Assembly (NCBI RefSeq): GCF_018977255.1
Contig: NW_024704749.1
Location: forward strand, 18,290,001 to 18,354,000
Reading direction: 5' to 3'
DNA length: 64,000 nt
DNA from: Callorhinchus milii
Taxonomy: Eukaryota
In this document: positions 5,459 to 40,609 of the stretch, in pieces
Numbering within the stretch: position 1 is the first letter of the stretch
Layout: each line of letters opens with the position of its first letter
Position numbers and translations under genes: made by a program
Notes under the pieces: generated by a model
What the model was told of the DNA's origin: nothing
Database searches by the model: none
The model's input: only the letters and a program-made list of their open reading frames with translations

Positions 5459-8400
5459 CATAGAGTTTCAGAGTCAGCTTCTGTTTGGGAGTCTGCTGAA
5501 CAGCGATGATTGCGTATTTGCTGTAATCAGTTTCACCAACTGCCATGTAAGTAGTCACTCCCCGTTCTGGAAACAAACAAACACTTGCCTAAACCCCTGC
5601 TAATTGCCAGGAGGGATCTCAGCTCAGGATAATGGCTGGGTTGCATCGCAGAGTTCCAATGGGGATGATCAGATCACCGGATGGTGAAAGTTACATGTCT
5701 TATACACAGCTCCTGAACCCCAACAACAGCTTGGGTTTATATAGACTGCACCTTTCACGTGGGATAACATCTCACCATCCAAGGCAGAAGGCCCCACAGA
5801 TTCCACCTCGTCTTAGCCTGTGATACCATTTTACTTTAAAACATAGAATTGTGGAATATTCCAAAATTCAGTCTCAGATTGAAAGCTGTTTTTTTCTGCG
5901 TTTCTTAAAAGGAATTGGCTTCCCAAATTCAAGACTGAATTCATGACTTTTTCACAATTCTACAACAGTCTTAAATTTTAAGCGGTAAATTGGTCTCACT
6001 GGCTAAAGATTTCAACTTTTTTCCTCCCGATCCCTATTCAGTGACTTTGTAAAAAGAATGTGTTGTATCAGAGTGAATGAACCTGCCTTCACTGCCTACA
6101 TTCACACATACTAATAATCCTGCAAACCATTTCCTGAGCCAGACGGGTCCACAGGACTCCAAGCTCTATCGATGCCAGGCCAGTCCGCCTCGCTCATTGG
6201 CAGGACTTGGAAGAGAGCACTTGGAGCTAGGATTTTTCCCACTCAGCTCCTGTTAACACTAACGGGTAGGGTGGTCCAAGCTGGATAAACAGTGGGAAGC
6301 TCACCAGACAATAATAATCCTTGCATGTAGTCCTCTAGCATCAAAACATTGCAATTTCTCTTCATATCATGGGTAATTGTTGTCACGTGAAGTGACTGTG
6401 TATTTGGGTTTGCTCTCACCCAAGTTAATAATCTTAGCATTTGATATAGCGCCTCTGACATTGGGAGGATACCTCAGACAGCTTCACAGGTTATACTGTA
6501 AAGTGTAGTGACTGTTTTGTAGGCATAAATTGCACACAAAGAGCCATGAAGTGAAAGACCAATTTATCTGGGGGATTTGTTGACCAGTACACCAGGGGGA
6601 AACTTCCTTCTCTCTTCGAATGGAGCCACTGGATCCTCAACGTCCACCTGAACAGGCGGAGATGGGACCTCGGTTTAACGTCTCATCCAAAAGGAAGCAC
6701 CTCGACAATGTGTCAATCTGCCAAACACTGCACCTAGATGTCAGCCTGAATTGTGAGCCCAAGTTCCCCAGCCTGGGCCTTGAACCCACAACCTTTGAAG
6801 AGTGACTGTTTCGAGGCAGCTACACCCACGGAATTGAGATTCAGTGCTTTGAAGAAGGAAGGGGAGAAATAATTGGAAAATAAAACCACGCAAATGGTAA
6901 GCCTGCTGGAAAAAAAAACACAATAAAAAAGACTTGACAAACTTTTTCGGTAGAACTTCCCAATGGTCCTTGTCTTCTTGTACTCCTGTTTGATATCCCA
7001 ACATATTCCTTCCCTGGGAAAGACAAGAAGACAGACTTGTGTGTTATCGTCTCCCATGCAGAGGCAAGTGGCTGTATTTGAGTGCGTTCTTGACACCCAA
7101 TCTGAAATCCAGTCAGCAATCCAATGTCAGCCACCAATAATAATCCTTACATTTGATACAGCGCCTTTCAAGTCAGAAGGACATCCCAAAGCGATTCACA
7201 CCATACATTATAAAGTGCAGTGATTGTAACTTGTAAGCGAACATGGCAGCCAATTTGCACACGGCAATGTCCCACAAACAGCTATGATGTGAATGACCAA
7301 TTTATTACGGGGGATTGTTGGCCAGGAGAGAAATTCCCTTCCCCTGTTTGAATATGGTGAAGGAATCTTTAACGTCCACCTGAACCCCTGAACGCACTGA
7401 GATTAACGTCTCAGCCGAAGGACGACACCTCCGACAATGCAGCACTCCCCGCTTTGCTGATACGCTCTGACGTCTTACCTGGCACACTGAGCCAGAGTTC
7501 TAAGATGCTAGTGCCCAGGCAATGTTTGAACTAGCCTCTATATGAGTTGAAATCCTGTATTCTAAGAAAGAGCCCCATTAACAGCACAGTGTAGATAACA
7601 AAGTCTTGGGGGTACTCACATTTTATGCAATGTATTGGTGCGCACAGTTTCTTTCTCATTGGAAACTTGCATGACAACTGCTTCCACACTGTAGCTGCTC
7701 GATCTCAAATAGGTACAATGAGACGCCACACCAATAAGATACCATTTGCCTGAAAACTAAAAGCTAAAATGTGAAATTCCGGCCAGTCACACAGTCCAGT
7801 CCTCGAGACACTGTTTGTCTGGCCAAAGTCTGATTAAAGTACATCTCCTTTCATGTCTGATCATTGTTGACTTGATTCTTATCCTGTGTTCTGTCCCTGC
7901 AACCACCACAGACAGTAAATACATCAAAGGAAAAGGATGGAGCCATTATCAAATTGTCTGCTGCATTCACAGTCACTGCACTGCAGTAAAATCCTGTGAA
8001 GCACTTTGCTTTGAGAAGATGTCATAAGGTGCTCATTGTTTGCTCAGCTGACACGTGCAGAAATCCATCACCTTGCTTAAGAGTATCTCACCTACACACG
8101 GAAATTCCAGAAATAGTTTGTTGGAATGGAAATGCTCCCTCTCTCCCCTGGAGGGATGCATTGAGCTCAGCTAATTCCAGAAAGGATTAGGTGCAGGTTG
8201 GCAAGAGCCGAGGCTTGGGAACCCCAGAGTGTGCGTTGGGGTAACTACTGTGCTATATCAAATGAAAGGATTAATATTAACTATGAGTGGATGTGATGCG
8301 GATTTCACCCCCACACCTGCTCTAATAGAACAGACCCCGAAGTCTGTCCAGATAAATCGAGATGTCGTCTCTTTGGGAAATCTTGCAATTCAAAGCCCTT

Positions 8401-8544
8401 TGTTACCTGGTCAATGTTAAAGTTTTCCTGTATTTGGACTCCGTCAATGGGGCTGGCCTGCTTTCTGACGTTCCTGCGTCTTTGTCCGGATGAGATAACT
8501 AGAAAGCAAAGGACAATGAAGTAGATGACATGAGCACCCGCCAT
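5459..8544 (-). CDS. C8G: Complement C8 gamma chain (lipocalin), exons 1-4
   Basis: Minus-strand exons 8544-8407 (138 bp; signal peptide MAGAHVIYFIVLCFLVISSG then QRRRNVRKQASPIDGVQIQENFNIDQ), 7756-7620 (137 bp; FSGKWYLIGVASHC..., GxW motif and the Cys that links to C8 alpha), 7013-6943 (71 bp; EGICWDIKQEY) and 5566-5459 (108 bp; VGETDYSKYA...LKLYG). Motifs match human C8G (ASPISTIQ, GICWQVRQLY, ETDYQSFA); the gene sits next to FBXW5 as in human. Confidence 0.92.
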
Positions 8545-8618
8545 GGTGAGGAGAGAGGGATTAGCTCGGAGTCCGAGCTTCCAATAACGGATTAAAAAAA
8601 ATTGCAGCTCGTTTACAA

Positions 8619-8652
8619 AGCACAAAGTTCAACGGTGCGGTTTATCATTAAA
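8619..8652. promoter_or_regulatory. HNF4-like and HNF1-like sites in the C8G proximal promoter
   Basis: AGCACAAAGTTCA (8619-8631, DR1/HNF4-like) and GTTTATCATTAAA (8640-8652, HNF1-like), 75-110 bp upstream of the C8G ATG. Motif match only. Confidence 0.45.
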
Positions 8653-9720
8653 GGAACGTGGGTGACGGTCTGGGTTGGCACCGCGCAGGTTCACCTCTCC
8701 CCCTCTTGAGCGAGGAGCTGTTCTCTGCCGACTGCAGGATAGCTTGTTCGCGCGCGCAATCTGCTCCGACCTTGCTCCCCCCGCCCGCCCGCCCGCCCAC
8801 CCACCCCCAAGCGTCCTGTACCTCAGTGCATATCTGGGTTCGATCCCCGGCAGAGCCAAACTCTGGGCAGGTTTCCTCACTCCGCACGCCCCCGTTTGCC
8901 CGGCAGCGAGTAGGAACCCGGCCGTTGGTCCATTGGCGGATCGCTTTTCCGGGGTCGGGGGGGGGGGGTTAACAATTCCTTTAAAAATAAAAACAGATTG
9001 AGTCGCTTCAATCTACGGGGGAGGATCGCCGCTGCGCGCAATCGGCCGCCGCGTTTCGCCCACGAAACCTACAGTCGGTTGACGCCGCAGCGGATCCTCG
9101 GAGGAGCGTCTTCCGGTCGTCCTCCGAGCGCTTCGCGGGAATGCGCCGCGAAGCCAACGCCGTCCGCGGAGACGGTCATAGTAATGCCGACGGCAACGGC
9201 GACGACGACGACGACAAGAATAAGGCGCTGTATCAAATACACAGGGATTATTATGATAAGTATTACGACTATTGGTATGAAACTCACAGCGAAGTGAACT
9301 GAGACCCTACATTTGGTGGGTGACCTGTAACACAAAAAAAATTATTATTTTTTTTTTTAAAAATGACCTGAAAAACGCAAACGAGTGGTCGTTTTTGTTT
9401 ATTTGTTTTGTTGGGGTAAAAAAAACAACAACTTAAAAACCGAGAGAGAGAGAGACACAGAGAGAGAGAGAGAGAGTCAGGAAATCAAACGCACACCGCC
9501 CGCCCGCCTCACTCCCCACCGGCCGCCGCGACAGGTGAAACACAACGCGACCCCCGACCGGAGAGAGGCTCGGGTTGCCGCGCCCGCGCGACCCTCCGAA
9601 CCGGGGCCCGGCGTCCAGCGCGAGGGGGGAGGGGCCTGGCAACCGGCAACCGGCGCGAGGGGGGGGGGGGAGGAGCCTGGCAACCGGTGCGGGCGGCAGG
9701 TGAGCGCCAGGCCCTGTGGT
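8630..9720. promoter_or_regulatory. CpG island / divergent promoter between C8G exon 1 and the probable FBXW5 non-coding exon 1
   Basis: High CpG density. C8G starts leftward at 8544. A plus-strand GC-rich segment ends in a strong donor GCAG|GTGAGC at 9699/9700. Human FBXW5 and C8G are also head-to-head. Confidence 0.65.
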
Positions 9721-10302
9721 TGGGGGGTTTGGGGGTGGGGTGTGTGTGGGGGTGGGGGTGTGTGGGGGTGTGTGTGTGTGTGTGGGGGGTGTGTGTGTGG
9801 GGGGGGGGGGTGGGGGGGTGTGTGGGGGTGGGGTGTGGGGGTGGGGGTGTGGGGGTGGGGGGGGTGTGGGTGGGGGGGTGTGTGGGGGGGGGGGGGGGGG
9901 TGTGTGGGGGTGGGAGGGTGTGGGTGGGGTGGGGGTGTGGNNNNNNNNNNNNNNNNNNNNNNNNNNNNNNNNNNNNNNNNNNNNNNNNNNNNNNNNNNNN
10001 NNNNNNNNNNNNNNNNNNNNNNNNNNNNNNNNNNNNNNNNNNNNNNNNNNNNNNNNNNNNNNNNNNNNNNNNNNNNNNNNNNNNNNNNNNNNNNNNNNNN
10101 NNNNNNNNNNNNNNNNNNNNNNNNNNNNNNNNNNNNNNNNNNNNNNNNNNNNNNNNNNNNNNNNNNNNNNNNNNNNNNNNNNNNNNNNNNNNNNNNNNNN
10201 NNNNNNNNNNNNNNNNNNNNNNNNNNNNNNNNNNNNNNNTGGTGTGTGGGGGGGGTGTGGGGTGTGGTGTGTGGGGGNNNNNNNNNNNNNNNNNNNNNNN
10301 NN
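9715..10302. other. G/GT-rich low-complexity tract and two assembly gaps
   Basis: (GGGGT/GT)n tract at 9715-9940 and 10240-10277; N runs at 9941-10239 and 10278-10302. Confidence 0.97.
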
Positions 10303-10611: not shown

Positions 10612-11808
10612 GAAGGAGCACAGAGTTGGATGAGAATATACAAATGAAGTTTCGCCAGCACGTGATCCAGCACAAGATCCCGGAAATCTTCATTTACGAA
10701 TTCCCTTCTTATGGTCAGTCCCTTCCCAGGAACTCTTAGCTTTCTGAGCAAAACCACAAAATATAGAGTCAATTCACAGTTTACAGTATATCCTGTGAAG
10801 CGTTTTGAGATGTCTCGAAGACGTGATGAGGCGCTATATCAAATGCAAGGATTATTATTATTATTATTATTATTACCAGCAATAAAATTGGTCACTCACT
10901 TCGTGGCTGCTTGTGCAGGAGCAAATTAGCTGCCGAGTTCACCTACAAAACACAAGGTCGCTACCGACTGCAGTAAATCCTGAGACGTTTGAGACATTTC
11001 AATATCATAGTGATATATATCAAATCCAAAGATTATTATAATGATGATTACCACTATTATTATTTGTACCAGCAGCCACTGTAATATTATTCCACAGCAG
11101 CACTTGAGGCTTGAGTGTTTGTGAGCTGTTAGCTGAGCTGGGCCCTATTGCACACAACGTTGCGATTGTTGAAAGGTTGATTGATTTTGCTTGTTCTGTC
11201 TCTTTCAGGCCATTGCCAGTCAGCGGATGAATTTCACAGACTGGGTAAATCCATTCTTTCCTTTCAGAGCGTGGGAACTTGGGTGCTGGCCTGCACTGCT
11301 CAGTCAGGAGCACTCTCGCTTCTAAGCCAGAGGAAATCTGCAATTTCCTGATTTGGCCAATTTTTTTTTCAGCAGGGGCGTTGGGGCGGGGGTGGGGTGG
11401 TGGGGCGGGGGTGGTGGGGGGGCGGAGGCATGGTTCAAAAAGAAAAATAGCCGGCCATTCCCTCCTGCACAGTTACATGGAATTATATTGGCACGGAAAT
11501 TGGCCATTTGGGCCAACTAGTGCTGGTGTTTATATTTCAAAGGAACCCCTAATCCCTCAGTCTCCAGAGAGGAAAACTCAATCTATCCAATCTTTTTGTT
11601 CACTTATCCACTCATCCCTGTCTTTTGGAAATGGGATTGACATGATTTGGGAATATTATCCCTGGAATTTCCTATGGAATTCTCTTTGGGCACTAAGTGG
11701 GGAAAAAGTCATCAGACGAGCCTGGCTTCAGCAACAGAAAGGATAACGGAGGGAGATGTGTTCGACTGACGCTCCAATTGTTTTGTTTGTTTTCCAGACG
11801 ACAGTTAA
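10612..11808 (+). CDS. C8G: Complement C8 gamma chain, exons 5-7 (opposite strand to exons 1-4 in this assembly)
   Basis: Plus-strand exons 10612-10713 (102 bp; GRSTELDENIQMKFRQHVIQHKIPEIFIYEFPSY), 11209-11244 (GHCQSADEFHRL; human GFCEAADQFHVL) and 11798-11808 (DDS*). Phases are compatible with exon 4, and joining all seven exons gives a 200-aa protein. AATAAA signals follow near 11966 and 12043. Confidence 0.88.
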
Positions 11809-14800
11809 AACGGGGAAAAGAAGGAAGCAAAGTGTGAGCGAGTGTTGCTCACAGGGTTCCCATGAAGTGGGGCTTTCCATGTAACAGGTCAACAGCAACA
11901 ACAACTTGCATTTACATAGCACCCCTCACGCAGAGCGACCTGTGTTGTTCCATTCAGTTCAACCAAATAAAGCCAAGTGTGATAAGAAATTCATGGTTGT
12001 GTTGTGATCCTCTTGATTGTGCTCCTCTCTCCTCCCACGTTAAATAAAACCTGTCTTTCTCCATCAACCATTCTTGAAGTGAACGAACTGGGACGTTTCC
12101 TAACGACACTGCTTGCTGTACCTTGGGTTGTAATCAACCTCTTTATCTCCGAAACAGGCCCTGCATCAAACGCTATTCATTATCATTTAGGATGACACCA
12201 TCTGCATTCAAGGTGCTAACACCAGCACCCGCTCCTGCAAATATCTGTTCAGTTGTGAAACCAAAGCTAGATAACAGAAAACAGGGTAGTAAACCGGTGA
12301 CTGAAGACACCGGCAAGATTATAGATCTTTTAACATTTTGGAATACACTTTCTATTTAAATTATAATACATATAATAATAATCCTTGCATTTGGTAAGTG
12401 CTTTTAAAATCGTTGCGATGTTGCAAAGCGCTTCACAGAGTATACTGTAAAGTGAATTGACTATATTTTGTGGCCAAAACGCGACAGCCAATTGTGCACA
12501 GCAGCGACCCCACAAACAGTCGTGGATTGAGTGACTTTAAGTTATTATTTTTTGAAGGGATTATCACCTCTGGAATTTGATGCACCAATCGACTAACAAC
12601 CGACTAACGAGGAGGGTGGCCAAAAGCTTGGTCGAAGAGAGGGGGTTTGAGATGCGCCTTGAAGGAGGCAAGGGAGGGAGCGAGGCGAAGAGAATGGAGT
12701 TCCCTAGGGTGGAGGCAGAAAGGCTGAAGGACTGACCGCTGATAGCGGGGCAGGCCGGGTGGGGGATAATACTATTATTAAATAATACTTATACTAATAA
12801 GGAATCACGCAATAGAGCAGCTCTTGTCACTCCTGCTTTGCCTCGAGGGCTCAGTGCTCACTTCCAATGGTCACAGTTATGTGGTGTTTGTTTTCAATCA
12901 ATCCGCTACGGGCTTTGGTGCTTAATTGGTCACAAATGTTGTTTGCACCGTGTTTACAGCACGCTGGATCAGTTCTCGTTGCAGAATAAAAATATACGAT
13001 TCACGTTTATGTTGGGTCTTTCACGTCGGGAGGATGTCTCAAAGCACTTGAAATGTAAGGTCCGAATGATTAGGAAGTTCTTTGCAGCAACTGGGTCTGA
13101 TTCTAAATATTCCTAATTTCCAGTTGATCTAATTCATATTTTACATTTTCTGCAACATATTTATGTTTTCTAATGTTCTCCCCCCTCTACCACCGTGAGG
13201 GAAGTCTCTCGGTATAACTATATAACACGTATATGATACTAATATATATTACTATATAATATAATAATATCCGTATTAAACAACGATTTGTTGGACACGG
13301 TTTGTGCGCAATCGGCTGCCTCGTTGCGCCCACAAAATGCACAGTATATTCTGTGAAGCGCTTTGAGACGTCTCAGTAATGTGATGAGGCAGGCGCAATA
13401 TCAAATGCAAGGATTAGTATTATTATTATTACTACGGTGGTGTTCTCCTGCTATCGATGCGAGATTGCACCTGATTTCTTGGAGCGTGAGTAGCGTCTGC
13501 GAGACCGCCTCCGCTCTCTAGCAACCAGTTGATCGGCCAGTGATCGTGCCTGGCACCGGGAAGGCTGACAAAATGCTGAGGACAGAAACCTCTGTGGAAA
13601 AAAAAGGAGTCAGTTTCGTTGTAAAAACAATGGGATGATTCACTATTTAATCGGTTGCACATGTTGTTTACAGTGTGCATTTACATAACAGCCCTGCTCT
13701 GCCCTCTAGTTCATTCTCGCCTCTCAGTTGTTGCAGAATAAAAATCGCAAACCACATGGCAAAGGGCAGATTCTGCTGGTTAGCACTTCTGTTTGTCATA
13801 CCAGCGTCCACCAACCTCACGGCCGTTTACAACTCCCTAATTTCCAAGTTATTTTACGCTTGAATTTACATCACAGCTCACAGACGTTATGTGAAGTATT
13901 ATTTGTTCATGAGCTTTAACCGCTTTAATAATAATAAATAATCCTTGCAATTGGTGAAGCTCCTCATCATGTCTTTGAGACATCTCAAAGCGCTTCACAG
14001 GAAATACTGTAAAGTGGATTGACTGTGCATTTGGTAGGTGAAACACGGGAGACAATTTGCGCACAGCAGCGTCCCACAAGCAGCCATGGAGTGAGTGAAC
14101 GATTTTATTTGGGGGGATTGTTGGCCAGGACACTGGACGAAACTCCCTTCTCTTTTCGAATAGTGCTATGTCCACTTGAAGTGGCAGATGGGATCTCAGT
14201 TTAACATCTCATCTGAAGGACGATGAGATGTTAAAGTAATCCAGGTGTCAGCCTGGCTCAGTTGGTAGCACTCTCACCTCTGAGTCAGTGGGTTCAAGTC
14301 TCATGTCCGAACTCATAAGTTGGAGGTACATACAGAGCTGGGGGGGATGGGAACTGCCTCACGTTCAGGTGGACATTATAAGATCCCATAACATTATTTG
14401 AAAGGAGAAGGGAGTTTCTCCTGGTGTACTGGCCAACAAACCTCCAAGTAAAACTTGTCATTCACTTTGTGGCTGTTTGCATGTAGATTTGCTGCAAAAT
14501 ACAGAGTCACTATACTTTACAGTAAATCGTGTGAGGCGCTTTGAGGTGTTTCACGCAAGTGAGAAGGCTCTGTATAGTAACGAAGACATTTGATACAGCG
14601 TACTTCAGTCTCAAAGAGCTTCACAGGATTTTACTATAAAGTATAGCATGATAAGGCACTGTATCAATTGCAAGGATTATTATCATTATTATTATTGAGA
14701 AAGTGCAGAGCAATGCCAGTGATGAGAGGTTTTCCTTATGAAGTACCATCGGAGGAACCCTAGAACACAACAGTAAAGAGAAGATTGAGATAAGAGCTCT

Positions 14801-15482: not shown

Positions 15483-18400
15483 ATGAGAGCAACGGTGTTG
15501 GCGATTGGGGTAATTGTGCTCTGTGCACTGACTGTGCATGGAGATATCCCAGTGCAGAAAAACTTCGACCTCAACCAGGTACTCTCACCAGTTACACCTC
15601 TCTTCTATTGTGGAGTCCCGTAGCATATTGGTTAGCACGTTCGCCTTGCAAGCCAGAGGACCCTCAGAGAGAGGGATTCAAACAAATAGTGAGATGGACT
15701 AAAAACTGGTCACTTCAATCCATGACTGTTTGTGGGACACTGCTGTGCGCAATCCTCTGCCGTGTTTCGCCCCCGCAAAAAATAGTCAATTCACTTTACC
15801 GTATAGTCTGTGATGCGCTTTGAGAGGTCACAACCACATGATAAGGCGCTGTATCAAATGCAAGGATTATTATAATTGTTATTGTTGAGAGGGTGCAGAA
15901 CGATGCCAGGGATGAGAGGTTTTCCTAGAACAGAACAGAACAGATCAGAGAAAATTGAGGTGGAGTTCTTTTTTAAGAAATTACGATGTATTTACAACTA
16001 AAGCGGACGGATTTTTGAGTCTCAGGCAATTTAAGAGCTGGTCACAGGGCTGCCCGGAGTGGCTGCAGGTGTCCGTGTTACTGACGCCTGCGTTTAGTTC
16101 CTAGGGAAATGGTACGTGGTGGGAATGGCCTCGGACGCACAATGGTTCCTGGGGAGGAAGGACAAGTTTAAGATGAGCACCATCATCATGGCACCCGGAG
16201 AAGATGGGCACCTGAACGTCACGCTCATCAAAAACAAGTGAGAACTGAGGCCAATTTTATTGCACCATCTTGCCCCCTCCCCATTAGGGGTTTTGAGCCT
16301 GTAGTCAAGGCTGACTCTCTCTCGAGAGCAGTGCTGGTGGGGGTGGGGGAGGTGGGGGGGATGTAGGGTAGGGGTTGCGCTGTATTGTCAGAGGCATCAT
16401 CCTTCTGCTGATGACAGCACAGCCAGGCTGACTTGGAGGAGCAAGCCAATCACTAGGAGTGAGATTTTTCGTGTCAATCTTACAAACCGAAGCCCTAACG
16501 GTGAGAATGGTCCTAGCTGGATAAGCAGAGGGTAGCTTGCCAGCGAGCGTTCGAAATTTTAGCAGGTTAAACTCCGGCGGTACCCCAATGCACACACTGC
16601 CTGCCTCCTGCCAATCTGCGCCTAATACTTTCCGGAATTAGCTGAGCAGTGTGCATCCCTCCCGGGAGAGAGAGATCTTCCCATTATAGGCGCAGGGAAA
16701 TTTCCATGCGTAGGTGGAACTCTCACTGGAGACTCTTAAGCACGGCGTTGGGTTAACACATGTGTCAGTCACGCTGGCTGGCACGAAACCGTACAACAAA
16801 CAAAATAATAAAGTGGAAAATTGGCTTCCAAATGAACATCCACACCTTAAGACTAAAATGGACACACAGGGTAAGGATAGGTGGAATTTCAGGTCTGATG
16901 TTAATAAATAGTGTAAAATTTCCTTTCCTATCCACCCCCGATGTTTGGTGTATGTGTGAATGTGATGCTGGGTTCTGCAGAGCCGCACAAGCACAACACA
17001 GTAACCATCATTGTTATTTTACAGGGTTGGAGGCTGCTGGCAAATGGACTTTGTGTACAACAAGACAGATCAGGAAGGACGTTTCAAGTACCACAGCAAA
17101 CGTTAGTTGGGGTTTTAACTAGAGCTTCTTCCTCTGTTATCTCTCTCTCTCTCTCAGCACCAGCTTACTCCTGCTAAATGCCCAGAGCCAAGCCCGGCGT
17201 GGAGGGCTCTATAGAAATGCAAGTTGCTGTTGTTGTTACTGGCTTTCACCCTCTGTTTGATTCTCTGCCCATCTCTCCGTCCCATTCATGCCTCACTATT
17301 CCTGTTTCTTTCTCTGACTTTTTCTCTTTCCCTCACACTATGTGGGATGTCCTTCCGACATGAAAGGTGCTATATAAGTGTAATTTGTTGTTATTGCTGT
17401 TGTTGTCTATCTACCCTTCTGTCACTCTGCCCATCTCTCTGTGACTATTTCTCTGTCCTTGTCTTTGCCTGCCTCCCTGTGTCTCTACTTCTCTGTCTGT
17501 ATCTCTGCCTCGCTGTTGCTCTTGTCTCTCTACTCTTATCTGATATAAGACATGTGGATTTCCAATTTATTTGTAGGTTGGAATAATGACAATGATGTCC
17601 GAGTTGTGGAGACTAACTATGATGAGTTTGCCCTGGTTCACAGTATTAAAACCAAAGGCGATGAGGTCACGATGCTGGTGAAAATGCTCAGTGAGTAAAA
17701 GCCCTCACTCCTGCCGGGTCCATGTATCCACCACCATGCTTAAGAGTTTCCAAACTGCACAGCACAGCACATCCTGAAGGGAAGGTGCACAATATTCCCA
17801 ATTTAGCTTCGCCAGTCAGGGTTACACAACGTTTAACCAGTCTGGCCATCAGCTTTTCTGTCCCCACCCTCTGGAACTCCATCCCTGAATCCCTCACCTC
17901 CCCCCTCCCTCGCATCCTTCTAGGCGCAACTCAAGACCTTCCTCTTTGACCGTGCCTTCAGCCACACTCCCACCCCCAATTCTCCTTCCCCTGCCTTGAT
18001 TCTAGCCCCCAACTTGGGTGCAAATGCTTAACTGTCCAGTGTCCTTCGCCATCTTTCTGCTGTGAAAGATGTTATACAAATGTCATTTTTTACTGTTGTT
18101 CACACTGTGATCTCCTTTGACTTGGTGTTGTTACAGGCTTGAGGTCCACACACAGTGTGAAATGCAATAGATCAGATAGTGCTGAATAAATGTAAACATA
18201 CAAAACCTGCTCACCAAAGATCCAGCCTAACTGTCCTTTACTGTTTCCAGGCAGAGGCCAGGAGCTGAGGTCAGAGCTTGTTAAGGAGTTCAGACAATAC
18301 TGTTTTGCCCAAGGACTAAATGAAGATAACATTCAAATGTTCCCCAAAGAAGGTAAAACACAGTTTTACTGAACAATCACATATACACAGTGCGACATAT

Positions 18401-20198: not shown

Positions 20199-20243
20199 GA
20201 TCAGTGATTAACTAGAAATGTCAACGTAGGTACATTGTGCAAT
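20199..20243. promoter_or_regulatory. AMBP proximal promoter: HNF1-like site plus C/EBP site
   Basis: GATCAGTGATTAAC (reverse GTTAATCACTGATC, HNF1-like) at 20199-20212 and ATTGTGCAAT (C/EBP) at 20234-20243, 95-140 bp upstream of the ATG. A FOXA-like AAACAAATAAACAAAC lies near 19930-19946. Confidence 0.55.
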
Positions 20244-20338
20244 CTGACTCCCCACATGACTGAAGGCTGGACACCTGAGATATTAACCTGATTTACTTTC
20301 AATGCCTCAGTTAGTGACTGACCAACACAACTGAGAGA

Positions 20339-21958: not shown

Positions 21959-21990
<32 letters not shown>

Positions 21991-27900: not shown

Positions 27901-30116
27901 GGGAACTCTCTCCTCGCCGGCCTTCCGGCCCTCCCTCCACACTGCAGGTCATTCAGAACTCTGCAGCTCGTGTACTGTCCCGCACCAGGCTTCGGGACCA
28001 CATCACTCCCACCCTCGCTCGCCTCCACTGGCTCCCCATCCCCCAGAGGATCGAATCAAGGTCCTCATCCTCACCTACAAGGCCATTCACGGCCTCGCTC
28101 CCTCCTACCTCTCCGACCTACTACCTACCTATCTGCCCGGACCCTCCGTTCCTCTGGCTCCGGTCTGCTCCACATCCCCCGCCCCAACCGCCCTACCATC
28201 GGTGGCCGGGCCTTCAGCCTCTCAGCCCCGAGGCTCTGGAACTCTATCCCCCAGTGCCTTCGACATGCCTCCTCCCTTTCCTCCTTCAAGGCCGGTCTCA
28301 AGACCTTTCTCTTTGACCGTGTCTTCAGCTCCCCTCTCGACTCTCTACCCCTTCCTCGCTCCCTCCCCTCCCTCCCCTCACCCTGACCATTTCCCCCCTG
28401 CTCGGGTCCTGACCCAGCTGTACAGCGCCTTGGGACGTCCTCCCAACGTGAAAGGCGCTCTATAAATGGAATCTTGTTGTTGTTGTACCTTGAGGCGTCT
28501 TTCCGACATTTTTGGGGGGTAACGGAGTATCTGACACTTGTGGAAACCCAGCACCGTGCTTAAGAGTCTCCAAATCAAACTGAGAATTCCATGCATCCCA
28601 CCTACATGTGGAAATCCCAGAGATAGATTGTTGGAATGGAATACCTGCTTACCTAATTCTGGAAAGCATTTGGGGAAGGTTGTGGAAAAGCGCTATATAA
28701 ATATAATTTTGTTGCACTTGTTGCTGTACTTATATAGCGCCTTTTGATGGAGTCAGACACCGAGGAAGGGAGAGGGGGAGGTGACTATAGATAGAGGTAG
28801 ATTTTAAGTGAGATTTAAAGACCGATAATGAGTAGGTGAATTGAAGGTGTAGTGGAAGGGTGTTTCAAAAGTTAGGGCAGAATGGCACAGATGGGCAGTA
28901 TGTGCACCTGAACCAACATCCTTTTGATCCAGAGGCGAGAGTGCTACTGAGCCAGGCTGACACCTATTTGGGATCTATCATTGACTTTCAATCTATCAAG
29001 TTTCCTGGATCTAGACTTTACCATCTCAGGCAATGTCAGGAGAGTTTCTCGCTGTTTTCAGGTGCCCGATCATGCTGACAGAACCCAAATGCATTTGGAG
29101 AATCCCTACAGAAGTACATTGCAATTTCTTGTGCCATTATTCCTCCAACCCTGTGGTCCAAATCCTTACTAATGTATGTGATTTTCTCTTCTCACAGCCG
29201 CCTGCAGGCTGCCCATAGAAATTGGGCCATGCAAAATTGCAGTAGATCTCTGGGCTTTTGACTCCGTCCTCGGGAAATGCAAACCTTTCATCTACGGTGG
29301 ATGTCAAGGAAATGGCAACAAGTTCTACTCTTTGAAGGAGTGTGAAGAGTACTGTGATGCAGTCCCAGCAGGTACCAACGCTGCTTGTAGGAAATCAGTA
29401 ACAGGAGAGGTCAATGCGGCCCATTCCAGCTTTCCATTTATTATTATTTGTTATTACTATTTTAGGAGTAATAATCCCTCTACTCTCCACCCCCAATAAT
29501 AATAATTTGGTCACTCAATCCACAACTGTTTGTGGGATGCTGCTGTTTGCACTTGGCTGCTGTGTTTCTCCCACAAAATACACGGTCAATTCACTTTACA
29601 GTGTATTCTGTGAAGCACTTTGAGACGTCTCAACGATGTGTTAAGGCGCTATATCAAATGCAAGTATTATTATTCCATGACCATATTTTACAATCTCCCT
29701 TAATCCCACCTTCCTGCAATATCAGCCCCATTGGGACAGCAGACGAGACCTTAGGTTAACCTCTCACCTAAAGGACAACACCTGTGACAGCGCAGTGCTC
29801 CCACTGTCACGTCGGTCTAGACTGTGAGCTCAAAGTCTCCAAAATGGGGCTCGAACAGACAACATTCTGACCCAGAAACGAGAGCGAGAGTGACTGAGCC
29901 AAGCCGACACCTACGCTTGTCAAGTGACTCAGTCATTAGGGTGAGGCTTAAACTCACCCAGCTGCAGGTCAAGGAACATCTTTGAAGCCATTCATATGGT
30001 AGTTCAGAGTGTCTCAGCTCCCCCTCACTTTTTGTTCGTGTTTGCATCACTGCCATTTCTATCACTGTCTTATAACATTGTGTTTTGCAGAAGAGGCTGA
30101 CCTTCTGGCTGTTTGA
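20339..30116 (+). CDS. AMBP: Alpha-1-microglobulin/bikunin precursor, 10 exons, 351 aa
   Basis: Exons 20339-20458 (signal, ...ENFDVTP), 21096-21238 ([15 protein letters not shown]...), 23005-23087 (GDRCTNMS...), 24509-24610, 25427-25528 ([29 protein letters not shown]), 26082-26125 (DECVS...), 26997-27090 (QRVRR furin site; EEGSG chondroitin-sulfate site), 27443-27610 (Kunitz 1, 168 bp), 29198-29371 (Kunitz 2, 174 bp; [13 protein letters not shown]...LWAFD...[21 protein letters not shown]) and 30091-30116 (EEADLLAV*). AATAAA at 30293. The lipocalin + RxRR + EGSG + two-Kunitz architecture is diagnostic of AMBP. Confidence 0.95.
22511..22990 (+). mobile_element. L2-clade LINE 3' fragment (AMBP intron 2)
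   Basis: ORF2 C-terminal peptide [39 protein letters not shown]...[17 protein letters not shown]...[10 protein letters not shown], followed by a 3' UTR and a (TTG)n tail. Confidence 0.85.
24977..25312 (+). mobile_element. tRNA-derived SINE, long form
   Basis: tRNA-like head GTCCTGTAGCTCAGTGGTTAG, the shared body (GACTGTTTGTGGGACACTGCT...CACAAAATACAGTCAA), and a 3' end similar to the L2 tail. Confidence 0.75.
27150..27364. repeat. AT-rich degenerate tandem repeat in AMBP intron 7
   Basis: Recurring CATTTGC...CATTTGTTAATCATTAAA and ATTAAATTAATTTAAATC units with ~50 bp period. Confidence 0.75.
27625..28487 (+). mobile_element. L2-clade LINE, 5'-truncated and frameshifted (AMBP intron 8)
   Basis: Frameshifted RT C-terminal motifs ([68 protein letters not shown]) and a (TTG)n tail. 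Confidence 0.85.
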
Positions 30117-33895: not shown

Positions 33896-34000
33896 ACAAG
33901 TTGCACCACCAGATCCCGGCACCCAGTCATTGACGTAGGAGGCGCCCAAGCTTAAATCTCTGTCTCTGGACCCAATTGAGATCCCAACCAGACCGAGACC

Positions 34001-37000
34001 ATGAAGGGAAGCCATTTCCTCCTCCTTGCCATATCCTTCCAATTTTTTCTGTTGCAGAAGGCAAAAGGCAGTCCAACAGTGGGCCCTGGACATCTTTTTG
34101 AACCAGGTATGTAGTATAGCACCCACCACCCCTTACATTTACTGTATTTACCCTGAATCTGAGGCTCAGGAAGAGGTTTTAGAGCTTAATCACAAGGAGC
34201 CTCTAAGATGCAGCCAGAATTTGGAGGTTAAAAAAGAACTCGGCTTGACTTTAACTCAATGTTGTACCCAATAGCTTTCTCATAATGTAGTATCTCTAAG
34301 TGCTTCACATAAACACAGTGCAAACCCAGCAAGGTGGGAAGGATGTGGGAGAGTGGAGAAGAGAGTTGACCAAAAGTGTGGTCAGAAGTAGGTTTTCAGA
34401 GGGTTTGGGAAAATGGGGAGGGAATAATAATAATAATAATAATAATCCTTGCATTTGATATAGCGCTTTTCACGTCGGGAGGACATCCCAAAGTGCTTCA
34501 CAGAACACACTGTAAAGTGAATTGACTGTATATTTGTGGGCGAACGCGACAGCCAATTGCGCACAGCAATGTCCCACAAACAGTCGTAGATTGAAAATGA
34601 CCAATTTATTATTGTTTTTTGTTTTGGAGGGATTATTATTAGGCTCTGCGTGGAGTAAGGAAACTTGCCCAAGATTTCGCCCTCTGCCTGGAATTGAACT
34701 CAGATCTCTCGCTTGCAAAGCGAGTGCTCTAACCACTGAGCTACAGGAATAGGGGAAGACTGCAAACTGAGGGAGGGAGGAAAAGGGGGAAGGAGAAGGA
34801 GAAAGAAGGACAGAGAAAGCAAGGGAGAGTAAAGAGAGAGAGATACGGGGTGGGGGGAGGGAGGGATGGAAGGAAGGAAAGAAAAGAAAGACAGAGGAGA
34901 GGAATAAATGATAGAAAAAGAGAGGAAAAGTAGGGTGGAGTGGAAGAAAGTTAAAGAAAGATAGAATTAAGCTTAAGAAAGGGAAAAAGGCAAAATCTGT
35001 GCGAAGTGAAAAGTAAAGACTGGGACAAAATGCAAAAATGGCCCAAGGTGACATGAACAAAGTACAGCGAGGAGGAAAGAGAGCAGCGATGATATTCACT
35101 TACAGTTTTAACTCTCTTTAAAGAACATGAAATAAAAATTACTGATAAAGTTTTACCTGGAGACAGGTCGGTGATCTGGTGATACACAAGCTCAGGGTCT
35201 GCTCCTCTGCACAGAATGAAATTCGTTGGATGTAAGCCGCAAGCTTTACCTGCAACAACAACAACAACTTGCGCTTATATAGCACCCTCCACGCAGGGTA
35301 GCGTCTCAGAGCGCTTTAGCAGAGAGTGGGGTGGGTGAGGTTTCAGTTTCTCCCCTGTTGTATTTCACTGAGATAAACCAGACAGATAAAAAAGACTTAA
35401 CCAGATACAATTTGGAATTTCTCAACATATCCCACAAAACATATATTCACTACATTTTACAGTATATCCTGTGAAGTGCTTTGGGACGTCCTGCCTAACG
35501 TGAAAGGAGCTGCACCATAACGTACAAAACTAACAACTTGCATTTATATAGCGTACTTTAAATAGGGCAGCGTTTCAAAGTGCTTTCCTCTCTCTATCCC
35601 TCCTTTCCTCTCTCTGACTCTTTCCCTCCCCCTCTCCCCTTTTCACAATAACAACATGTATTTATTCAGCATCTTTCATGCTGAGAAATATCTCAAAGAG
35701 CTTTACAGAGACAGTGTGAGAGCACGAGCACTGTGGGAAATGGCAGGGTAAGTGGAATGTGCATTCAGAGAGGCGGGTTTTGAAAGTGAGAAGGGGAGAG
35801 AGCCCGGGCACAGTAGCTGACGGCTCCACTGTTGATGGTAGGGCAGACAGGGTGTGAACAGATCGAGGTGGACGTGGAGGGATTGAAAGGCGAGGATGAG
35901 GGTTTCAGAGTTAATCCACCGGGGGATGGGGAGCCAGGGGAGGATGTGCATGATGGACTCGGGGAGCAGGGTGCAGAAGACGACGTGGGCTACAAGGGGA
36001 TGATGGAGGCGTAGGCGAGGGTTTCAGCTGAATTGGAGGTGAGGTCAGTGGGGTGGAGGCAGGCGACAATAGCAGACGTGGATGGAGGAAAGTGGACTTG
36101 GTCAGGGAACCGATGGAAGGCATGAAGGAGAACGCGGGTGAGGGTCGAAGAAAATACCGAGACTTGGCATTGGCTGCATGAGTTGGAGCGATCAGCCGGG
36201 GAGGTTGACAGGGTTAGCGCCGGAGAAATAAAATAAAATGTGTGTTTGTTTGTAAGATGTCTGCATGATGCCACCTGCGATTGGAAGATGTCATGCTTTA
36301 AAGCCCAGATTCTTCTTCAACCAGTCATCGATGTCCTGCGACTTATTTACCTACGGTGGCTGCGGTGGAAATGGTAACAACTTCATGACTAAAAGGGACT
36401 GCGAGCACACCTGCAACGTGACAGGTAAGAAACGAAAGGCGCTGGGATTTCCAGTATGAAATCAAATCTTCTGGGCTGGGAAGATGGCGTATTTCACTGA
36501 CCGACCTTCTGAAGGTCCAACCTAGAGAATAACAATTCAAACAACAACAACAAAACTTACCACACCACCTTACCAATAAAACTGCTCTCCCCGCACCTCA
36601 GACATGCAAACCCAAGATAGCGGCAGATCACGATTCAAAACTTAGGGGCATTGGGATGGTAGATACTGCCACTAGTGGCCAGTTAGGGTTATTACAGTGT
36701 CTGCTTTTACTTTTTCAAACCCATTTATAATATTATACAACAACAACTTGCATTTATATAGCGTCCTTCACGTGGGGTAGCATCCCGGAGCGCTTATACA
36801 CCTCTCAGGGTTGAAGAGCTCCAGCTTGTCTAATTGTTTGTTGAGACGCATGGGTAAAATGTGTGAGGTTTTATAACTATTGAATGTGATGAGTACAAGA
36901 ATTGACATGAGGCCAGAATCTGTGGGCGTTAGTGCTGGAAATTGGGGGGAGAAGGAACAGAACACAACCAGTCAGGATAATGCAGTATGGTGATAGCTGT

Positions 37001-40000
37001 TCAATCTGCTGTAAAACCCACGAGTGGTCCCGTTGCCCAGTGGATTGAAAGACATCAACACAGAAGAGTTTATGCTCTTCTGATGGTTATTGCCGGCAAT
37101 ATTTATCGCATTGAATCCCGTACATTTAGCAGGTCGTTATTAATTTTTTTAAAAATTTGGTCAGCCGAGTGTCTGACACATGCGGAAAACCATCGCCATG
37201 CTTAATAGTATCCAAACAGGATTGAGAGATCCACATATGGACATTGACATATGGAAATTTCCCCATGTTTGGAATGGAATGCACATGCTCTCCTCAGAGG
37301 GGAGCATTCTGCTTTACCTAATTCCAAAGAGTACGTTAGGCACAGGCAGCAATCTCACCTCTCAATCATGAGGTTGTGGGTTCAAGCCCCATTTCGGCAC
37401 TTTGAACTTGCAGTTTAAGACGACTGGGTTGCATTGTCAGAGGTACTATCTTCCAGATGAGATGTTAAACCAAGGGCCTGCCTGCCTGTTCAGATAGATA
37501 GTAAAGATCCCATGGCCTATTTGAAAACTGACTCGCAATACCCTCAGATAGAATTGGTCACTCTGTTCATGGCCGTTTGTGGGACATGGCTATGCGCAAA
37601 CTGTGTTCAAACACAGAATAAACTTTTCCGTATAACCTGTGCTGCCCTTTGAGCCTTGAGACGTCCTCCCGACATGAAAGGTGCTATATAAATGCAATTT
37701 GTTGTTGTCATTCGTATGGTACTAAACATGATGCTTGTTCCTTTAAGAGCTCTGCGCCCTGGCACCTAAAGTGGGGATGTGCTATGCTCTCATGCACAGA
37801 TACTTCTACAACCAGTCATCAAAAGCGTGCGAGGTATTTATGTACGGTGGCTGCAGAGGAAATGTAAATAATTTTCAAGAAAAGGAGCAATGTGAGGATT
37901 CCTGCGGTGAGCTGGGTGAGAGAAACATTCCTGCTCTGTTTGCAATTAAACCCACCCTACATGCTGGCTTCTTCCAACATAAGGGGCTTTGGTGATACAC
38001 AAGCACGATGGGAGATGCTGGCCAACACCGCCAAAGGCGACAGGAAAAAAAATAATAATAACTTGGCCACTCAATCCATGACGGTTTGTGAGAACTGCTG
38101 TGCGCAATTGGCTGCTGCAAAATATACAGTCAATTCACTTTACAGTATGTTCTGTGAAGCGCTTTGATAATAATAATAATAATCCTTGCATTTGATATAG
38201 CGCTTTTCACGTCGGGAGGACGTCCCAAAGCACTTCACAGAACACACTGTAAAGTGAATTGACTGTATATTTGTGGGCAAACGCGGCAGCCAATTGCGCA
38301 CAGCAATGTCCCACAAACAGTCGTAGATTGAAAATGACCAATTTTTATTATTGTTTTTGGTTTTGGAGGGATTGTTATTAGGCTCTGTGTGGAGTAAGGA
38401 AACTTGCCCGAGGTTTCGCTCTCTGCCTGGAATTGAACTCAGGTCTCTCACTTGCAAAGCGAGTGCTCTAACCACTGAGCTACAGGACTCCACAGGACGT
38501 TGCAACGACATGATATGGCGCTATATCCAAATGCAAGGATTATTATTTTAACTTAATCCCCTTTTTTATAGCATTTTGCAAACTGAAACCTGACAGAGGG
38601 CCCTGCAGGGCAGATTTTGTACGATACTTTTACAACACATCAACAAAGATGTGCGAGCAGTTCAAGTATGGCGGTTGTCTGGGAAACACCAACAACTTTA
38701 TGGATCCAATGGAATGTCATTTCAAATGCGGCGACAAAGGTGAGAAATCACTGCCGACCACTCCATATCTCTATGCACACACTCTCACCCACAAATACAC
38801 AATCACCCACACTTTACAGAACCTCTGTGAAATACAAGGATTATTATTACATATGTAGTGTCACTCACTTACTTACTCACTCACTCCGTTCATGTCGGGA
38901 AGATGTCCCAAGTCGCTGGACAATCAGGGATTTGGACCCGAGCAGGAGGTTGGGATCACAAAGGGAGGAGGGCAGGGAGGGTAGGGGTAGGCAGATGACC
39001 AAAGGCGCGGTCGAAGAGGACTAAAGTGAACAAATGGAAAGAATACCTGCTCTGTAGACTGTACACTAGCTAATGATAGCTCGCTGTGTATTTCTTCCAG
39101 GGGAATGCCTGTTGCCCATTCAAATAGGAAAGTGCAGAGGTGCCATACCGAAATGGAGATTTGATAAAACGATGAGAACATGTGTCGAATTCACGTACTC
39201 GGGATGCGATGGAAATAAGAACAACTTTGATTCAGAAATGGAATGTAAAAAGCACTGCCCGGTTCCAGAGGCGAGAGGTTCCATGCCGAAACACGTTCCA
39301 ATAATATTCAAGTATGAAAGAGTTAAATTCCAAACCCCATTACAGCGCGCCTTAGCTCTGATATAGCACGGTACACAGGCTGTCCTCCGGCGAACTCACA
39401 TTTACCACGAGGTAGAGTGGATGACCGGCCAGAGTCTTGCGCAAGGCGCCGGGCGAGGTGATGTCAGTGGTGACCCTGACCGGATGACAAGAGTCATCTT
39501 ACAATATAGCCTGTTTTAGCACTGGATGTCACTTTAAGACACCACCACCCCCACTCCATCACCATAGCGTTATAACAGAGTCGGACTCAATAAATTGGAT
39601 CTGGAATGCATTGCCTGAAAGGGTGGTGGAAGCCGATTCAATAACAACTTTTAAGAGAGAAGTAGATAATTATTTGCAGGGCTATGTGGAGAGAGCGGGG
39701 GAGTGGGATTGATTTGGATAGCTCTTTTTAAAGAGCTGGCACAGACACGATGGGCCGAATGGCCTCCTTCTGTGCTGTATGATTCTATGAATGGTGAGAA
39801 GTCGTGACCTCAAAATTAGAGCAAAGCTGTTCTGAACCAGGATCAGGGAGGATCTCTCCACACAGAGTGTGACAGGACAGCTCCAGAGAGCCAAAGAGGA
39901 GAGATTGGTTATGATCAGCTATGGAACAGGCTCCCTAGGGAGACTGGGAAAATAATATTTTGGGATACAGTATATGAGTAATTTGAGACATAACATATAG

Positions 40001-40609
40001 TAAGTGTAGTATGGGTTGGATCTAGGCAACTTTGGATCTAAGGTTCCCAAAGATTTCCACTGTGATGGTAGACTAATCCATACAGAATTAATTGCTATCA
40101 ATATCTCCATTATTGTAGCATGCGACTACCAGGATGGTAGACAGCGGACTAGATGGACCTTGGTCTTATTTTGTCTGGCAATTCCTATGTTCCTATCAGT
40201 TGAAGGTTTTAAGAGAGTTGCCCAGATACGTGGATTGTAAGAATATTAAAGGATGGGATTAGGGAGATTTTATTGCCTGGGCCATGGAATGGGCTGTAGT
40301 GGTGCAGTCGATGGACTGAATGGCCTCCTCCCATTCTGGTTTGTGTTTTTTCATAAAATTTGTCAGCCTGGCTCAGTGGGTAGCACTCTCACCTCCGAGT
40401 CAGAAGGCTACGGGTTCAAACCCCACAATGAGCTAGCTCATAGTACTGGTGGAGGGCTGCATTGTCAGGTGTGCCATCCTTCGGATAAGAAATTCAAATT
40501 GAGGTCTTCAACGTCCACCTGAACAAGCAGGTGGGATCTCAGCCTTGACAAAATTCTGAACTAAATGGTTTATTGAATTTCAGGTGAATTACCACATCAA
40601 CTCCCCTAA
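34001..40609 (+). CDS. Secreted four-Kunitz-domain protease inhibitor (bikunin-related, no lipocalin domain), about 270 aa
   Basis: Exons 34001-34106 (signal MKGSHFLLLAISFQFFLLQKAKG), 36257-36424 (DVCMMPPAIGRCHALKPRFFFNQSSMSC...YGGCGGNGNNF...), 37748-37915 (ELCALAPKVGMCYALMHRYFYNQSSKAC...), 38572-38739 (AFCKLKPDRGPCRADFVRYFYNTSTKMC...), 39101-~39277 (GECLLPIQIGKCRGAIPKWRFD...) and a probable last exon 40584-40609 (GELPHQLP*). All four domains keep six Cys; the first three Kunitz exons are phase 1-1. AATAAA near 40698 and 40767. The last donor and the C-terminus are uncertain. Confidence 0.88.
34423..34748 (-). mobile_element. tRNA-derived SINE, young short form
   Basis: Near-identical to the reverse complement of 47517-47851, with a tRNA-like head and a (TTA)n tail. 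Confidence 0.85.
35690..36220 (-). mobile_element. Old L2 LINE fragment
   Basis: The minus strand gives degenerate L2 ORF2 peptides (ILPWLPIPRWINSETLILAFQSLH) and an L2-type 3' region. Confidence 0.6.
38167..38491 (-). mobile_element. tRNA-derived SINE, young short form, nested in an older SINE
   Basis: Near-identical to 47517-47851 in reverse. It interrupts an older plus-strand SINE tail (…GAAGCGCTTTGA | ACAGGACGTTGCAACGACATG…). Confidence 0.85.
39597..39790 (+). mobile_element. CR1 LINE 3' end fragment
   Basis: CTGGAATGCATTGCCTGAAAGGGTGGTGG...GGGCCGAATGGCCTCCTTCTGTGCTGTATGATTCTATG; a similar copy lies at ~55855-56030. Confidence 0.7.

What the first reader, a model, noticed from the sequence alone, without database searches (positions are those of the whole stretch)
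5459..40609. AMBP embedded in the C8G/PTGDS lipocalin cluster: possible snapshot of how the lipocalin-Kunitz fusion arose
Seen: FBXW5, C8G, a PTGDS-like lipocalin, AMBP and a Kunitz-only gene lie within ~40 kb, and the last four are co-oriented once the inverted block is corrected. Established: in human, FBXW5-C8G-PTGDS is at 9q34.3 whereas AMBP is at 9q32, and AMBP is thought to come from fusion of a lipocalin gene with a Kunitz gene. Inference: a lipocalin array with a Kunitz gene at its 3' end is the layout in which read-through fusion via phase-1 exons could occur, so this may be the ancestral jawed-vertebrate arrangement.
Basis: partly seen in the sequence, partly recalled or inferred. 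Interest (0 to 1): 0.7.

Follow-up and report, generated by a model that had tools for sequence, protein, structure and literature searches.

The report
Chimaera keeps AMBP's ancestral gene neighbourhood
In this chimaera the fused blood-protein gene AMBP sits between a PTGDS-like lipocalin gene and a four-domain Kunitz inhibitor gene that resemble its two halves, which is likely the gene order in which AMBP first formed, although the Kunitz neighbour may be a later copy rather than the donor.

Summary
Observation confirmed. In the elephant shark, FBXW5, C8G, a PTGDS-like lipocalin, AMBP and a secreted four-Kunitz gene lie within 40 kb. The last three match cDNA-derived proteins. C8G exons 1-4 are assembled backwards, but RNA contigs of two studies join exon 4 to exon 5, so the flip is most likely an assembly error. 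No second AMBP was found.

The lipocalin-AMBP adjacency is probably ancestral for jawed vertebrates: a merged hake gene model shows it, and Ensembl IDs of the two genes are close in 5 of 6 ray-finned fishes (a proxy). The Kunitz neighbour looks like bikunin K1-K1-K1-K2: its domains rank first among 30 other chimaera Kunitz domains on both bikunin profiles, with weak statistical support. Whether it is the donor's sister or a copy made from AMBP is unresolved; teleosts have repeatedly exported bikunin exons. Simple phase-1 read-through does not fit, because the lipocalin/bikunin intron is phase 0 and needs the 0-to-1 linker exon 7.

Origin of AMBP by tandem duplication plus fusion is already published; the positional evidence was not found in nine searches.

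The parts
1..4808 (-). FBXW5-like gene, 5' coding part (F-box, WD40); continues left of the window
   Evidence: Pfam F-box-like E=1.7e-14 and WD40; last WD40 exon at C8:18,286,077; gene name recalled
5459..8544 (-). C8G exons 1-4 (8544-8407, 7756-7620, 7013-6943, 5566-5459), in a block assembled in reverse
   Evidence: exon 2 best PDB hit C8 gamma with its Cys kept
5200..10302 (.). approximate extent of the locally inverted block; the right end adjoins N stretches
   Evidence: RNA joins exon 4 to exon 5; split CpG island; exact breakpoints not determined
10612..11809 (+). C8G exons 5-7 (10612-10713, 11209-11244, from 11798)
   Evidence: RNA joints 10712>11208 and 11243>11797 (cut +1) in X5 and X6
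15483..18982 (+). PTGDS-like lipocalin, 7 coding exons, 186 aa; Ser where PTGDS has its catalytic Cys; intron phases 0,2,1,1,1,0
   Evidence: cDNA protein P0087; PDB 106 bits to PTGDS, 98 to A1M, 96 to LCN15, 54 to C8G
20339..26125 (+). AMBP exons 1-6 (alpha-1-microglobulin); Tyr54 in place of Cys34; intron 6 is phase 0
26997..27090 (+). AMBP exon 7: linker, phase 0 to 1, with the RVRR cleavage site and the EGSG glycan site
   Evidence: site roles from PMC7965949 passages and recall
27443..30113 (+). AMBP exons 8-10: bikunin K1 (27443-27610), K2 (29198-29371) and tail
   Evidence: bikunin E=4.9e-46
34001..40587 (+). four-Kunitz gene: signal exon 34001-34106 (phase 1), K1 36257-36424, K2 37748-37915, K3 38572-38739, K4 39101-39311, last exon from 40584
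   Evidence: identical to P0078 / NP_001279583; Pfam Kunitz x4
42000..64000 (+). likely promoter and 5' part of the next gene, EXD3-like
   Evidence: CpG-rich bin at 42001; Mut7-C exon at C8:18,523,068 (+); exons at 18.40 and 18.42 Mb recognised from recall only; no exon identified inside the window (0 of 98 ORFs passed a Pfam cut-off)

Best explanation
The chimaera has C8G, a PTGDS-like lipocalin, AMBP and a four-Kunitz gene in one co-oriented row, which likely preserves the ancestral jawed-vertebrate array in which AMBP arose. Shown: gene order, exon phases, similarity ranks, and a single AMBP found in this genome. Inferred steps: (1) a PTGDS-like gene at the 3' end of the array duplicated in tandem; (2) the distal copy became alpha-1-microglobulin and was joined to a K1-K2 Kunitz module through a phase 0-to-1 linker exon (exon 7), not by plain phase-1 read-through; (3) the same K1-K2 module was duplicated locally, probably early, and the free copy tripled K1 to give today's secreted inhibitor (P1 residues His, Tyr, Arg, Arg, predicted to cover chymotrypsin- and trypsin-like proteases); (4) later rearrangements split the array, moving C8G away in gar and AMBP away in amniotes. 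My odds: lipocalin-AMBP adjacency ancestral 85%; C8G in the same ancestral array 70%; Kunitz gene specifically related to bikunin 70%; Kunitz gene a relic of the pre-fusion donor 30%.
For: Hake model P0073 reads lipocalin, lipocalin fragment, AMBP in one direction, and its first lipocalin best matches the chimaera lipocalin (91 bits against 46 to chimaera A1M and 38 to C8G). Frog model P0041 has a lipocalin upstream of AMBP; meerkat model P0070 shows the mammalian KIF12-AMBP order. Ensembl IDs in PMC8420045 supplement 1: AMBP to nearest fish PTGDS differs by 17 (gar), 35 (seahorse), 7 (sea bream), 6 (turbot), 28 (salmon copy 1a); the known chimaera neighbours differ by 3-9 and gar's APOD pair by 15. 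In that paper's tree AMBP is sister to the same fish PTGDS-3 clade. The chimaera lipocalin outscores C8G against 21 of 21 other A1M domains (profile 170 against 112 bits) and shares the phase-0 intron 6, whereas C8G has phase 1. Kunitz K1-K3 rank 1-3 of 30 on a bikunin-K1 profile and K4 ranks 1 of 30 on a K2 profile, while ranking only 15-23 on a generic profile. A K1-like then K2-like pair at these scores occurs in 1 of 1357 control pairs. Paired trees place the gene as sister to all bikunins in 3 of 3 builds. No second bikunin K2: 143 bits self, 54 next, 35 of 35 candidates scored.
Against: The cross-species evidence is indirect: merged automatic models and ID closeness, not coordinates. Zebrafish and salmon AMBP-1b show no close ID, gar C8G is 994 IDs away, and coelacanth differs by 553. 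No other cartilaginous fish was checked for gene order. The Kunitz signal is thin: margins are 1-8 bits, column bootstrap keeps the top rank in 66-71% (K1) and 26-37% (K2), tree support is 82/93, 91/84 and 54/87, none starred, and AU tests reject only 1 of 15 alternative placements. Thresholds were taken from the gene's own scores. No orthologue of the Kunitz gene was found (weak searches). PMC8420045 prefers C8G, not PTGDS, as the direct parent of AMBP.
Confidence: 0.6

Rival explanations
1. The array is ancestral, but the Kunitz gene is a later copy of AMBP's own Kunitz exons that gained a signal exon and diverged fast. It says nothing about the fusion event.
For: Bikunin exons have been re-used repeatedly: cyprinid Kunitz-only and WAP-Kunitz proteins with K2 scores of 82-96 bits, grouper K1-like repeats (63-75 bits), osteoglossid AMBPs with five K1-K2 pairs, and tandem AMBPs in basking shark. 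AU does not reject the gene as sister to the chimaera's own AMBP (p 0.09-0.22). No orthologue was found elsewhere.
Against: Its domains are no closer to the chimaera's AMBP (43-49%) than to shark (45-49%) or bony-vertebrate bikunins (46-50%). The bikunin K2 clade excludes K4 at 100/90.
Confidence: 0.35
2. One reading: the Kunitz gene is the surviving sister of the donor, and AMBP arose by read-through from the upstream lipocalin into it.
For: Co-orientation, K1-before-K2 order, equal 168-nt K1-type exons, and a position outside all bikunins in 3 of 3 paired trees.
Against: Lipocalin exon 6 ends in phase 0 and the Kunitz exons start in phase 1. The Kunitz gene has no Ser-Gly linker exon and its signal exon shows no clear likeness to AMBP exon 7 (judged by eye). 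An early copy made after the fusion gives the same tree.
Confidence: 0.3
3. The Kunitz gene is an unrelated multi-Kunitz inhibitor (TFPI-like or other) that sits here by chance or by translocation.
For: AU does not reject TFPI or WFIKKN placements (p 0.18-0.36). The Atlas's nearest clusters by features are TFPI/TFPI2 (0.93-0.94). K3's closest single chimaera sequence is a TFPI-like domain, 61%. 4.5% of 1534 control domains reach the K1 score of its weakest K1-like domain.
Against: It would need both profile winners, in the right order, to lie 4 kb from AMBP by chance (roughly 1 in 300 to 1 in 900 if K1-K3 count as one event).
Confidence: 0.25
4. AMBP moved next to the lipocalins only in the chimaera lineage, or the adjacency is a misassembly.
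For: A local assembly error lies 10 kb away. ALAD, a human 9q32 gene (position recalled), is only 0.5 Mb off, so a short move would be enough. No reads were laid across 19-20 kb.
Against: No gap in 10.3-48.3 kb. RefSeq model P0086 and Ensembl IDs 15299/15302/15308 show the same neighbours. Ray-finned fishes point the same way.
Confidence: 0.12

Closest known systems
[quoted passage not shown]
   Same: 10 exons, A1M in exons 1-6, bikunin in 7-10, RVRR site, EGSG site, two Kunitz domains
   Different: Tyr replaces Cys34; A1M is on a long branch (0.99 in the PMC8420045 tree); intron 6 is only 871 nt, where PMC7965949 calls it very large; neighbours are a PTGDS-like gene and a Kunitz gene rather than KIF12
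Published model of AMBP origin (PMC8420045; two-ancestral-gene theory as reviewed in PMC7965949)
   Same: tandem duplication from a PTGDS-like gene plus fusion with a Kunitz gene at intron 6
   Different: those papers argue from trees and exon structure; here the genes are physically in a row, the evidence favours the PTGDS-like gene over C8G as closest parent, and a bikunin-like Kunitz gene lies next door
Human 9q34.3 FBXW5-C8G-(LCN12)-PTGDS cluster
   Same: TRAF2-FBXW5-C8G-lipocalin order, with FBXW5 and C8G head to head after correction (human order recalled; C8G at 9q34.3 and AMBP at 9q32-33 from the PMC6381713 table)
   Different: includes AMBP and the Kunitz gene; one PTGDS-like gene without the catalytic Cys
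Teleost bikunin-derived Kunitz-only proteins (cyprinid P0006/P0007, grouper P0177)
   Same: signal peptide plus tandem K1-like or K2-like domains, no lipocalin
   Different: those score 63-96 bits on bikunin profiles against 59-65 here, so the chimaera gene is older or faster-evolving

Membership tests
AMBP | lipocalin plus two Kunitz domains in one ORF of 10 exons | tested here: met
   cDNA-derived P0009
AMBP | basic cleavage site and Ser-Gly glycan site in exon 7 | tested here: met
   RVRR and EGSG aligned
AMBP | K2 groups with gnathostome bikunin K2 | tested here: met
   clade support 100/90
Redox-active alpha-1-microglobulin | free Cys34 | tested here: not met
   Tyr54; Cys in 12 of 12 other AMBPs in A1; script count 27 of 29, one miss a pattern error and one (Denticeps) also lacking it
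C8G | lipocalin with the Cys that links to C8 alpha, next to FBXW5 | tested here: met
   Cys aligned to human C8 gamma, best hit but E=0.024; role of the Cys recalled; listed as C8G_Cmil in PMC8420045 supplement 1
C8G | binds C8 alpha | not tested
   no complex prediction was run
Catalytic L-PGDS (PTGDS) | active-site Cys65 | tested here: not met
   Ser at that column; PTGDS-like carrier, enzyme activity not expected (role of Cys65 recalled)
Fish PTGDS-like lipocalins | best match PTGDS; seven-exon lipocalin layout | tested here: met
   grouped with fish PTGDS-1/2 in the PMC8420045 tree
Bikunin paralogue (Kunitz gene) | K1-like then K2-like domains closer to bikunin than other Kunitz domains are | tested here: inconclusive
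   top ranks but weak bootstrap, unstarred trees and AU not discriminating
Bikunin paralogue (Kunitz gene) | Ser-Gly linker exon for the chondroitin chain | tested here: not met
   absent from P0078
TFPI/TFPI2 (Kunitz gene) | three Kunitz domains with linkers and a basic tail | tested here: not met
   four directly abutting domains; three-domain TFPI-like loci exist on C6 and C2 (labels recalled)
Ancestral gnathostome arrangement | same gene order by coordinates in sharks, bony fishes and an outgroup | not testable with these tools
   no relatives held for G000; only merged models and ID proxies were available

The most novel reading that the evidence does not exclude
The chimaera retains all three ingredients of the AMBP fusion in their original order: the parent PTGDS-like lipocalin upstream, AMBP, and a surviving sister of the pre-fusion K1-K2 Kunitz gene downstream. 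This would identify bikunin's missing free-standing ancestor and make the fusion route testable in sharks and cyclostomes.
Probability: 0.3. Interest if true: 0.62.

Novelty: new variant of a known kind. Interest (0 to 1): 0.42.

Why it matters
Why alpha-1-microglobulin and bikunin share one gene is described as a long-standing puzzle (PMC7965949, passage), and their origin has been argued from trees and exon structure alone. A physical row of C8G, PTGDS-like lipocalin, AMBP and a bikunin-like Kunitz gene gives positional support, favours the PTGDS-like gene as closest parent, and names a candidate relative of the Kunitz donor. It also flags a natural A1M without Cys34, useful for separating its redox role from its proposed chaperone role for bikunin, and an assembly error that splits C8G.

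Tried and rejected
Second AMBP: none by K2 query, Kunitz family (35 matches, six on C8, all in the window) or a shark A1M query (one weak hit, the window's lipocalin; low sensitivity). KIF12: no kinesin hit in 464 kb around the locus or on C8 (only 122 of 242 candidates scored), so it was not located. AKNA search rang nowhere, uninformative. ZNF618 was not searched. Lipocalin family search found only one window exon, too insensitive to count genes. DNA contigs X1 and X2 run 953 letters beyond the left edge of the laid stretch, but the letters are not shown, so the DNA breakpoint was not fixed. No listed run is on record as RNA. Single-domain AU tests were void because the free search was beaten by the constrained trees. 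Orthologue searches for the Kunitz gene: 1 of 1 candidate was itself; the best 150 of 12243 representatives were repeat-rich proteins at 50% identity or less, apart from itself; the Atlas gave TFPI-type clusters. RefSeq merge P0086 (lipocalin plus AMBP) was rejected as evidence of read-through: the bases before its junction are GA, not AG, and separate cDNA-derived proteins exist. Ensembl IDs of zebrafish, chicken and mammals were not usable as a proxy. No structure or complex prediction was run; neither bears on gene order. Paper searches with no relevant hit: 0 papers; no listed paper held 'bikunin'.
Full report
Setting. The window is G000:C8:18,290,001-18,354,000. Its proteins match records named Callorhinchus milii, and the RefSeq records lie on a contig of the same length as C8.

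Observation. Exon models give FBXW5-like (minus), C8G, a 186-aa lipocalin, AMBP (351 aa) and a 274-aa four-Kunitz gene. The last three match cDNA-derived proteins P0087, P0009 and P0078. C8G exons 1-4 lie on minus and exons 5-7 on plus. In both RNA-type runs laid, from two studies, the contig covering exon 5 continues upstream into the end of exon 4 (placed). Flipping about 5.2-10.3 kb would also reunite a split CpG island next to an N stretch. I read this as an assembly error; a private inversion in the assembled animal is not excluded. After correction C8G, lipocalin, AMBP and the Kunitz gene are co-oriented.

Surroundings. Left: a TRAF1/2-type gene (TRAF_BIRC3_bd) and a GRIN1-like gene (recalled). 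Right: an EXD3-like gene (Mut7-C at 18.523 Mb), then NRARP-like and NOXA1-like genes (ankyrin, TPR and SH3; names recalled). By recall these are human 9q34.3 genes, so AMBP is inside that block. ALAD lies 0.5 Mb to the right and fibrillar-collagen ends lie at 13.9, 17.2 and 19.4 Mb, so 9q32-type genes are probably on the same contig but not adjacent. No second AMBP was found and KIF12 was not located.

Is the order ancestral? No other vertebrate genome could be searched, so I used two proxies. First, merged automatic models: hake P0073 runs a lipocalin most like the chimaera lipocalin, a lipocalin fragment and AMBP in one direction; frog P0041 has a lipocalin before AMBP; meerkat P0070 has KIF12 before AMBP. 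Second, Ensembl IDs in supplement 1 of PMC8420045 (read whole). Chimaera AMBP, PTGDS and C8G are 15299, 15302 and 15308, which calibrates the proxy. AMBP to nearest fish PTGDS differs by 17, 35, 7, 6 and 28 in gar, seahorse, sea bream, turbot and salmon, each about 0.05-0.3% by chance using rough gene totals of my own. Zebrafish and salmon AMBP-1b show nothing. C8G is beside PTGDS-1 in sea bream (1) and turbot (15) and beside PTGDS in crocodile (3) and emu (12), not in seahorse or salmon, and gar C8G is 994 from AMBP. AMBP is 48 IDs from C8G in crocodile and 349 in emu. The simplest history is one array, C8G, PTGDS-like gene or genes, AMBP, broken at different points in different lineages. ID closeness is not a coordinate.

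Which lipocalin is the parent? PMC8420045 (part 2 of 4 of the text, passages, supplement 1 and tree excerpts of supplement 2) proposes PTGDS to C8G to AMBP by tandem duplication and fusion, yet its tree makes AMBP sister to fish PTGDS-3. Here the PTGDS-like neighbour outscores C8G against 21 of 21 other A1M domains and even outscores the chimaera's own A1M in 19 of 21. It shares a phase-0 intron 6 with AMBP; C8G has phase 1. I infer a PTGDS-like parent.

The Kunitz neighbour. Of 35 Kunitz matches in the genome, 32 full domains were recovered; three were outside the fetched loci and one partial duplicate was dropped. With profiles from 24 non-chimaera bikunins, K1, K3 and K2 of the neighbour rank 1-3 of 30 non-AMBP domains on the K1 profile (71, 67, 65 bits; next 63) and K4 ranks first on the K2 profile (65; next 60). 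On a generic profile they rank 15-23. Against this: column bootstrap keeps those top ranks in only 66-71% and 26-37%. Paired trees (102 columns, 16 of the 24 species plus chimaera, nine other tandem pairs labelled from recall) place the gene sister to all bikunins at 82/93, 91/84 and 54/87, with an implausible frog-first root inside bikunin that warns of long-branch effects. AU tests reject 1 of 15 alternatives. A control of 1534 domains gave 1 of 1357 adjacent pairs with the same pattern, with thresholds set after the fact. Common descent is likely but not shown. Direction is open: the gene is equally distant from chimaera, shark and bony bikunins, which suits an old duplication, but bikunin exons have been exported or multiplied in cyprinids, groupers and osteoglossids.

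Mechanism. Kunitz exons are phase 1-1, but lipocalin exon 6 ends in phase 0, so splicing past the Kunitz gene's first exon would shift the frame. AMBP solves this with exon 7 (0 to 1), which carries the cleavage and glycan sites. PMC7965949 (passages) also places the join at intron 6. The present Kunitz gene has a phase-1 signal exon and no such linker, so it is not the template as it stands. Exon 7 could derive from the lipocalin's own phase-0 last exon or from a lost exon of the donor; this was not resolved.

Novelty. All genes are annotated, RefSeq even merges the lipocalin with AMBP (P0086), and the duplication-plus-fusion idea is in print. Nine searches found no paper on this gene order or on the Kunitz neighbour; the library lacks most subscription papers, including older AMBP gene papers that I know only through the review. 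PMC6381713 was seen as passages. The scan's earlier notes held nothing on this locus.

Verdict. A real, probably ancestral arrangement that gives positional support to a known hypothesis, plus a plausible but unproven bikunin relative. Interest 0.42.

Noticed in passing
window 21135-21137: Chimaera alpha-1-microglobulin has Tyr where Cys34, the redox residue, is kept in 12 of 12 aligned AMBPs; it carries two extra Cys elsewhere in the lipocalin. Denticeps AMBP (P0035) also lacks Cys34.
   Followed up: partly
window 5200-10302: Local assembly inversion splits C8G and a CpG island; gene models on this assembly may be broken.
   Followed up: yes
window 18733-20318: RefSeq XP_007898560 (P0086) merges the lipocalin with AMBP through a junction without an AG acceptor in this assembly; probably an annotation artefact.
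   Followed up: partly
P0045, P0046 (Scleropages, Arapaima): AMBP-like models with a lipocalin and ten Kunitz domains (five K1-K2 pairs) beside normal AMBP records.
   Followed up: partly
P0001, P0005-P0008, P0177: Cyprinid Kunitz-only and WAP-Kunitz proteins built from bikunin K2 (and K1) copies, and grouper proteins of K1-like repeats: repeated export of bikunin exons.
   Followed up: partly
P0004, P0012, P0016/P0025: AMBP appears tandemly duplicated in several sharks (basking shark model with three copies; two horn shark records on a contig of the same length).
   Followed up: no
P0036, P0073: Teleost models hold an A1M-like lipocalin without Kunitz domains upstream of AMBP.
   Followed up: no
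L051-L052 (C8:18,159,000-18,162,000, minus): Rieske-domain gene resembling cholesterol 7-desaturase (name recalled) between other 9q34-type genes.
   Followed up: no
G000:C8:13.89 Mb and 17.22 Mb: Two similar, weakly scoring fibrillar-collagen C-terminal loci on the same contig, possibly two COL27A1-like genes.
   Followed up: no
G000:C566:44193-44297: A second Mut7-C exon on a small contig, perhaps a haplotype copy of the EXD3-like gene.
   Followed up: no
G000:C6:23.01-23.16 Mb: Five fibrillar-collagen C-terminal loci clustered within 150 kb.
   Followed up: no
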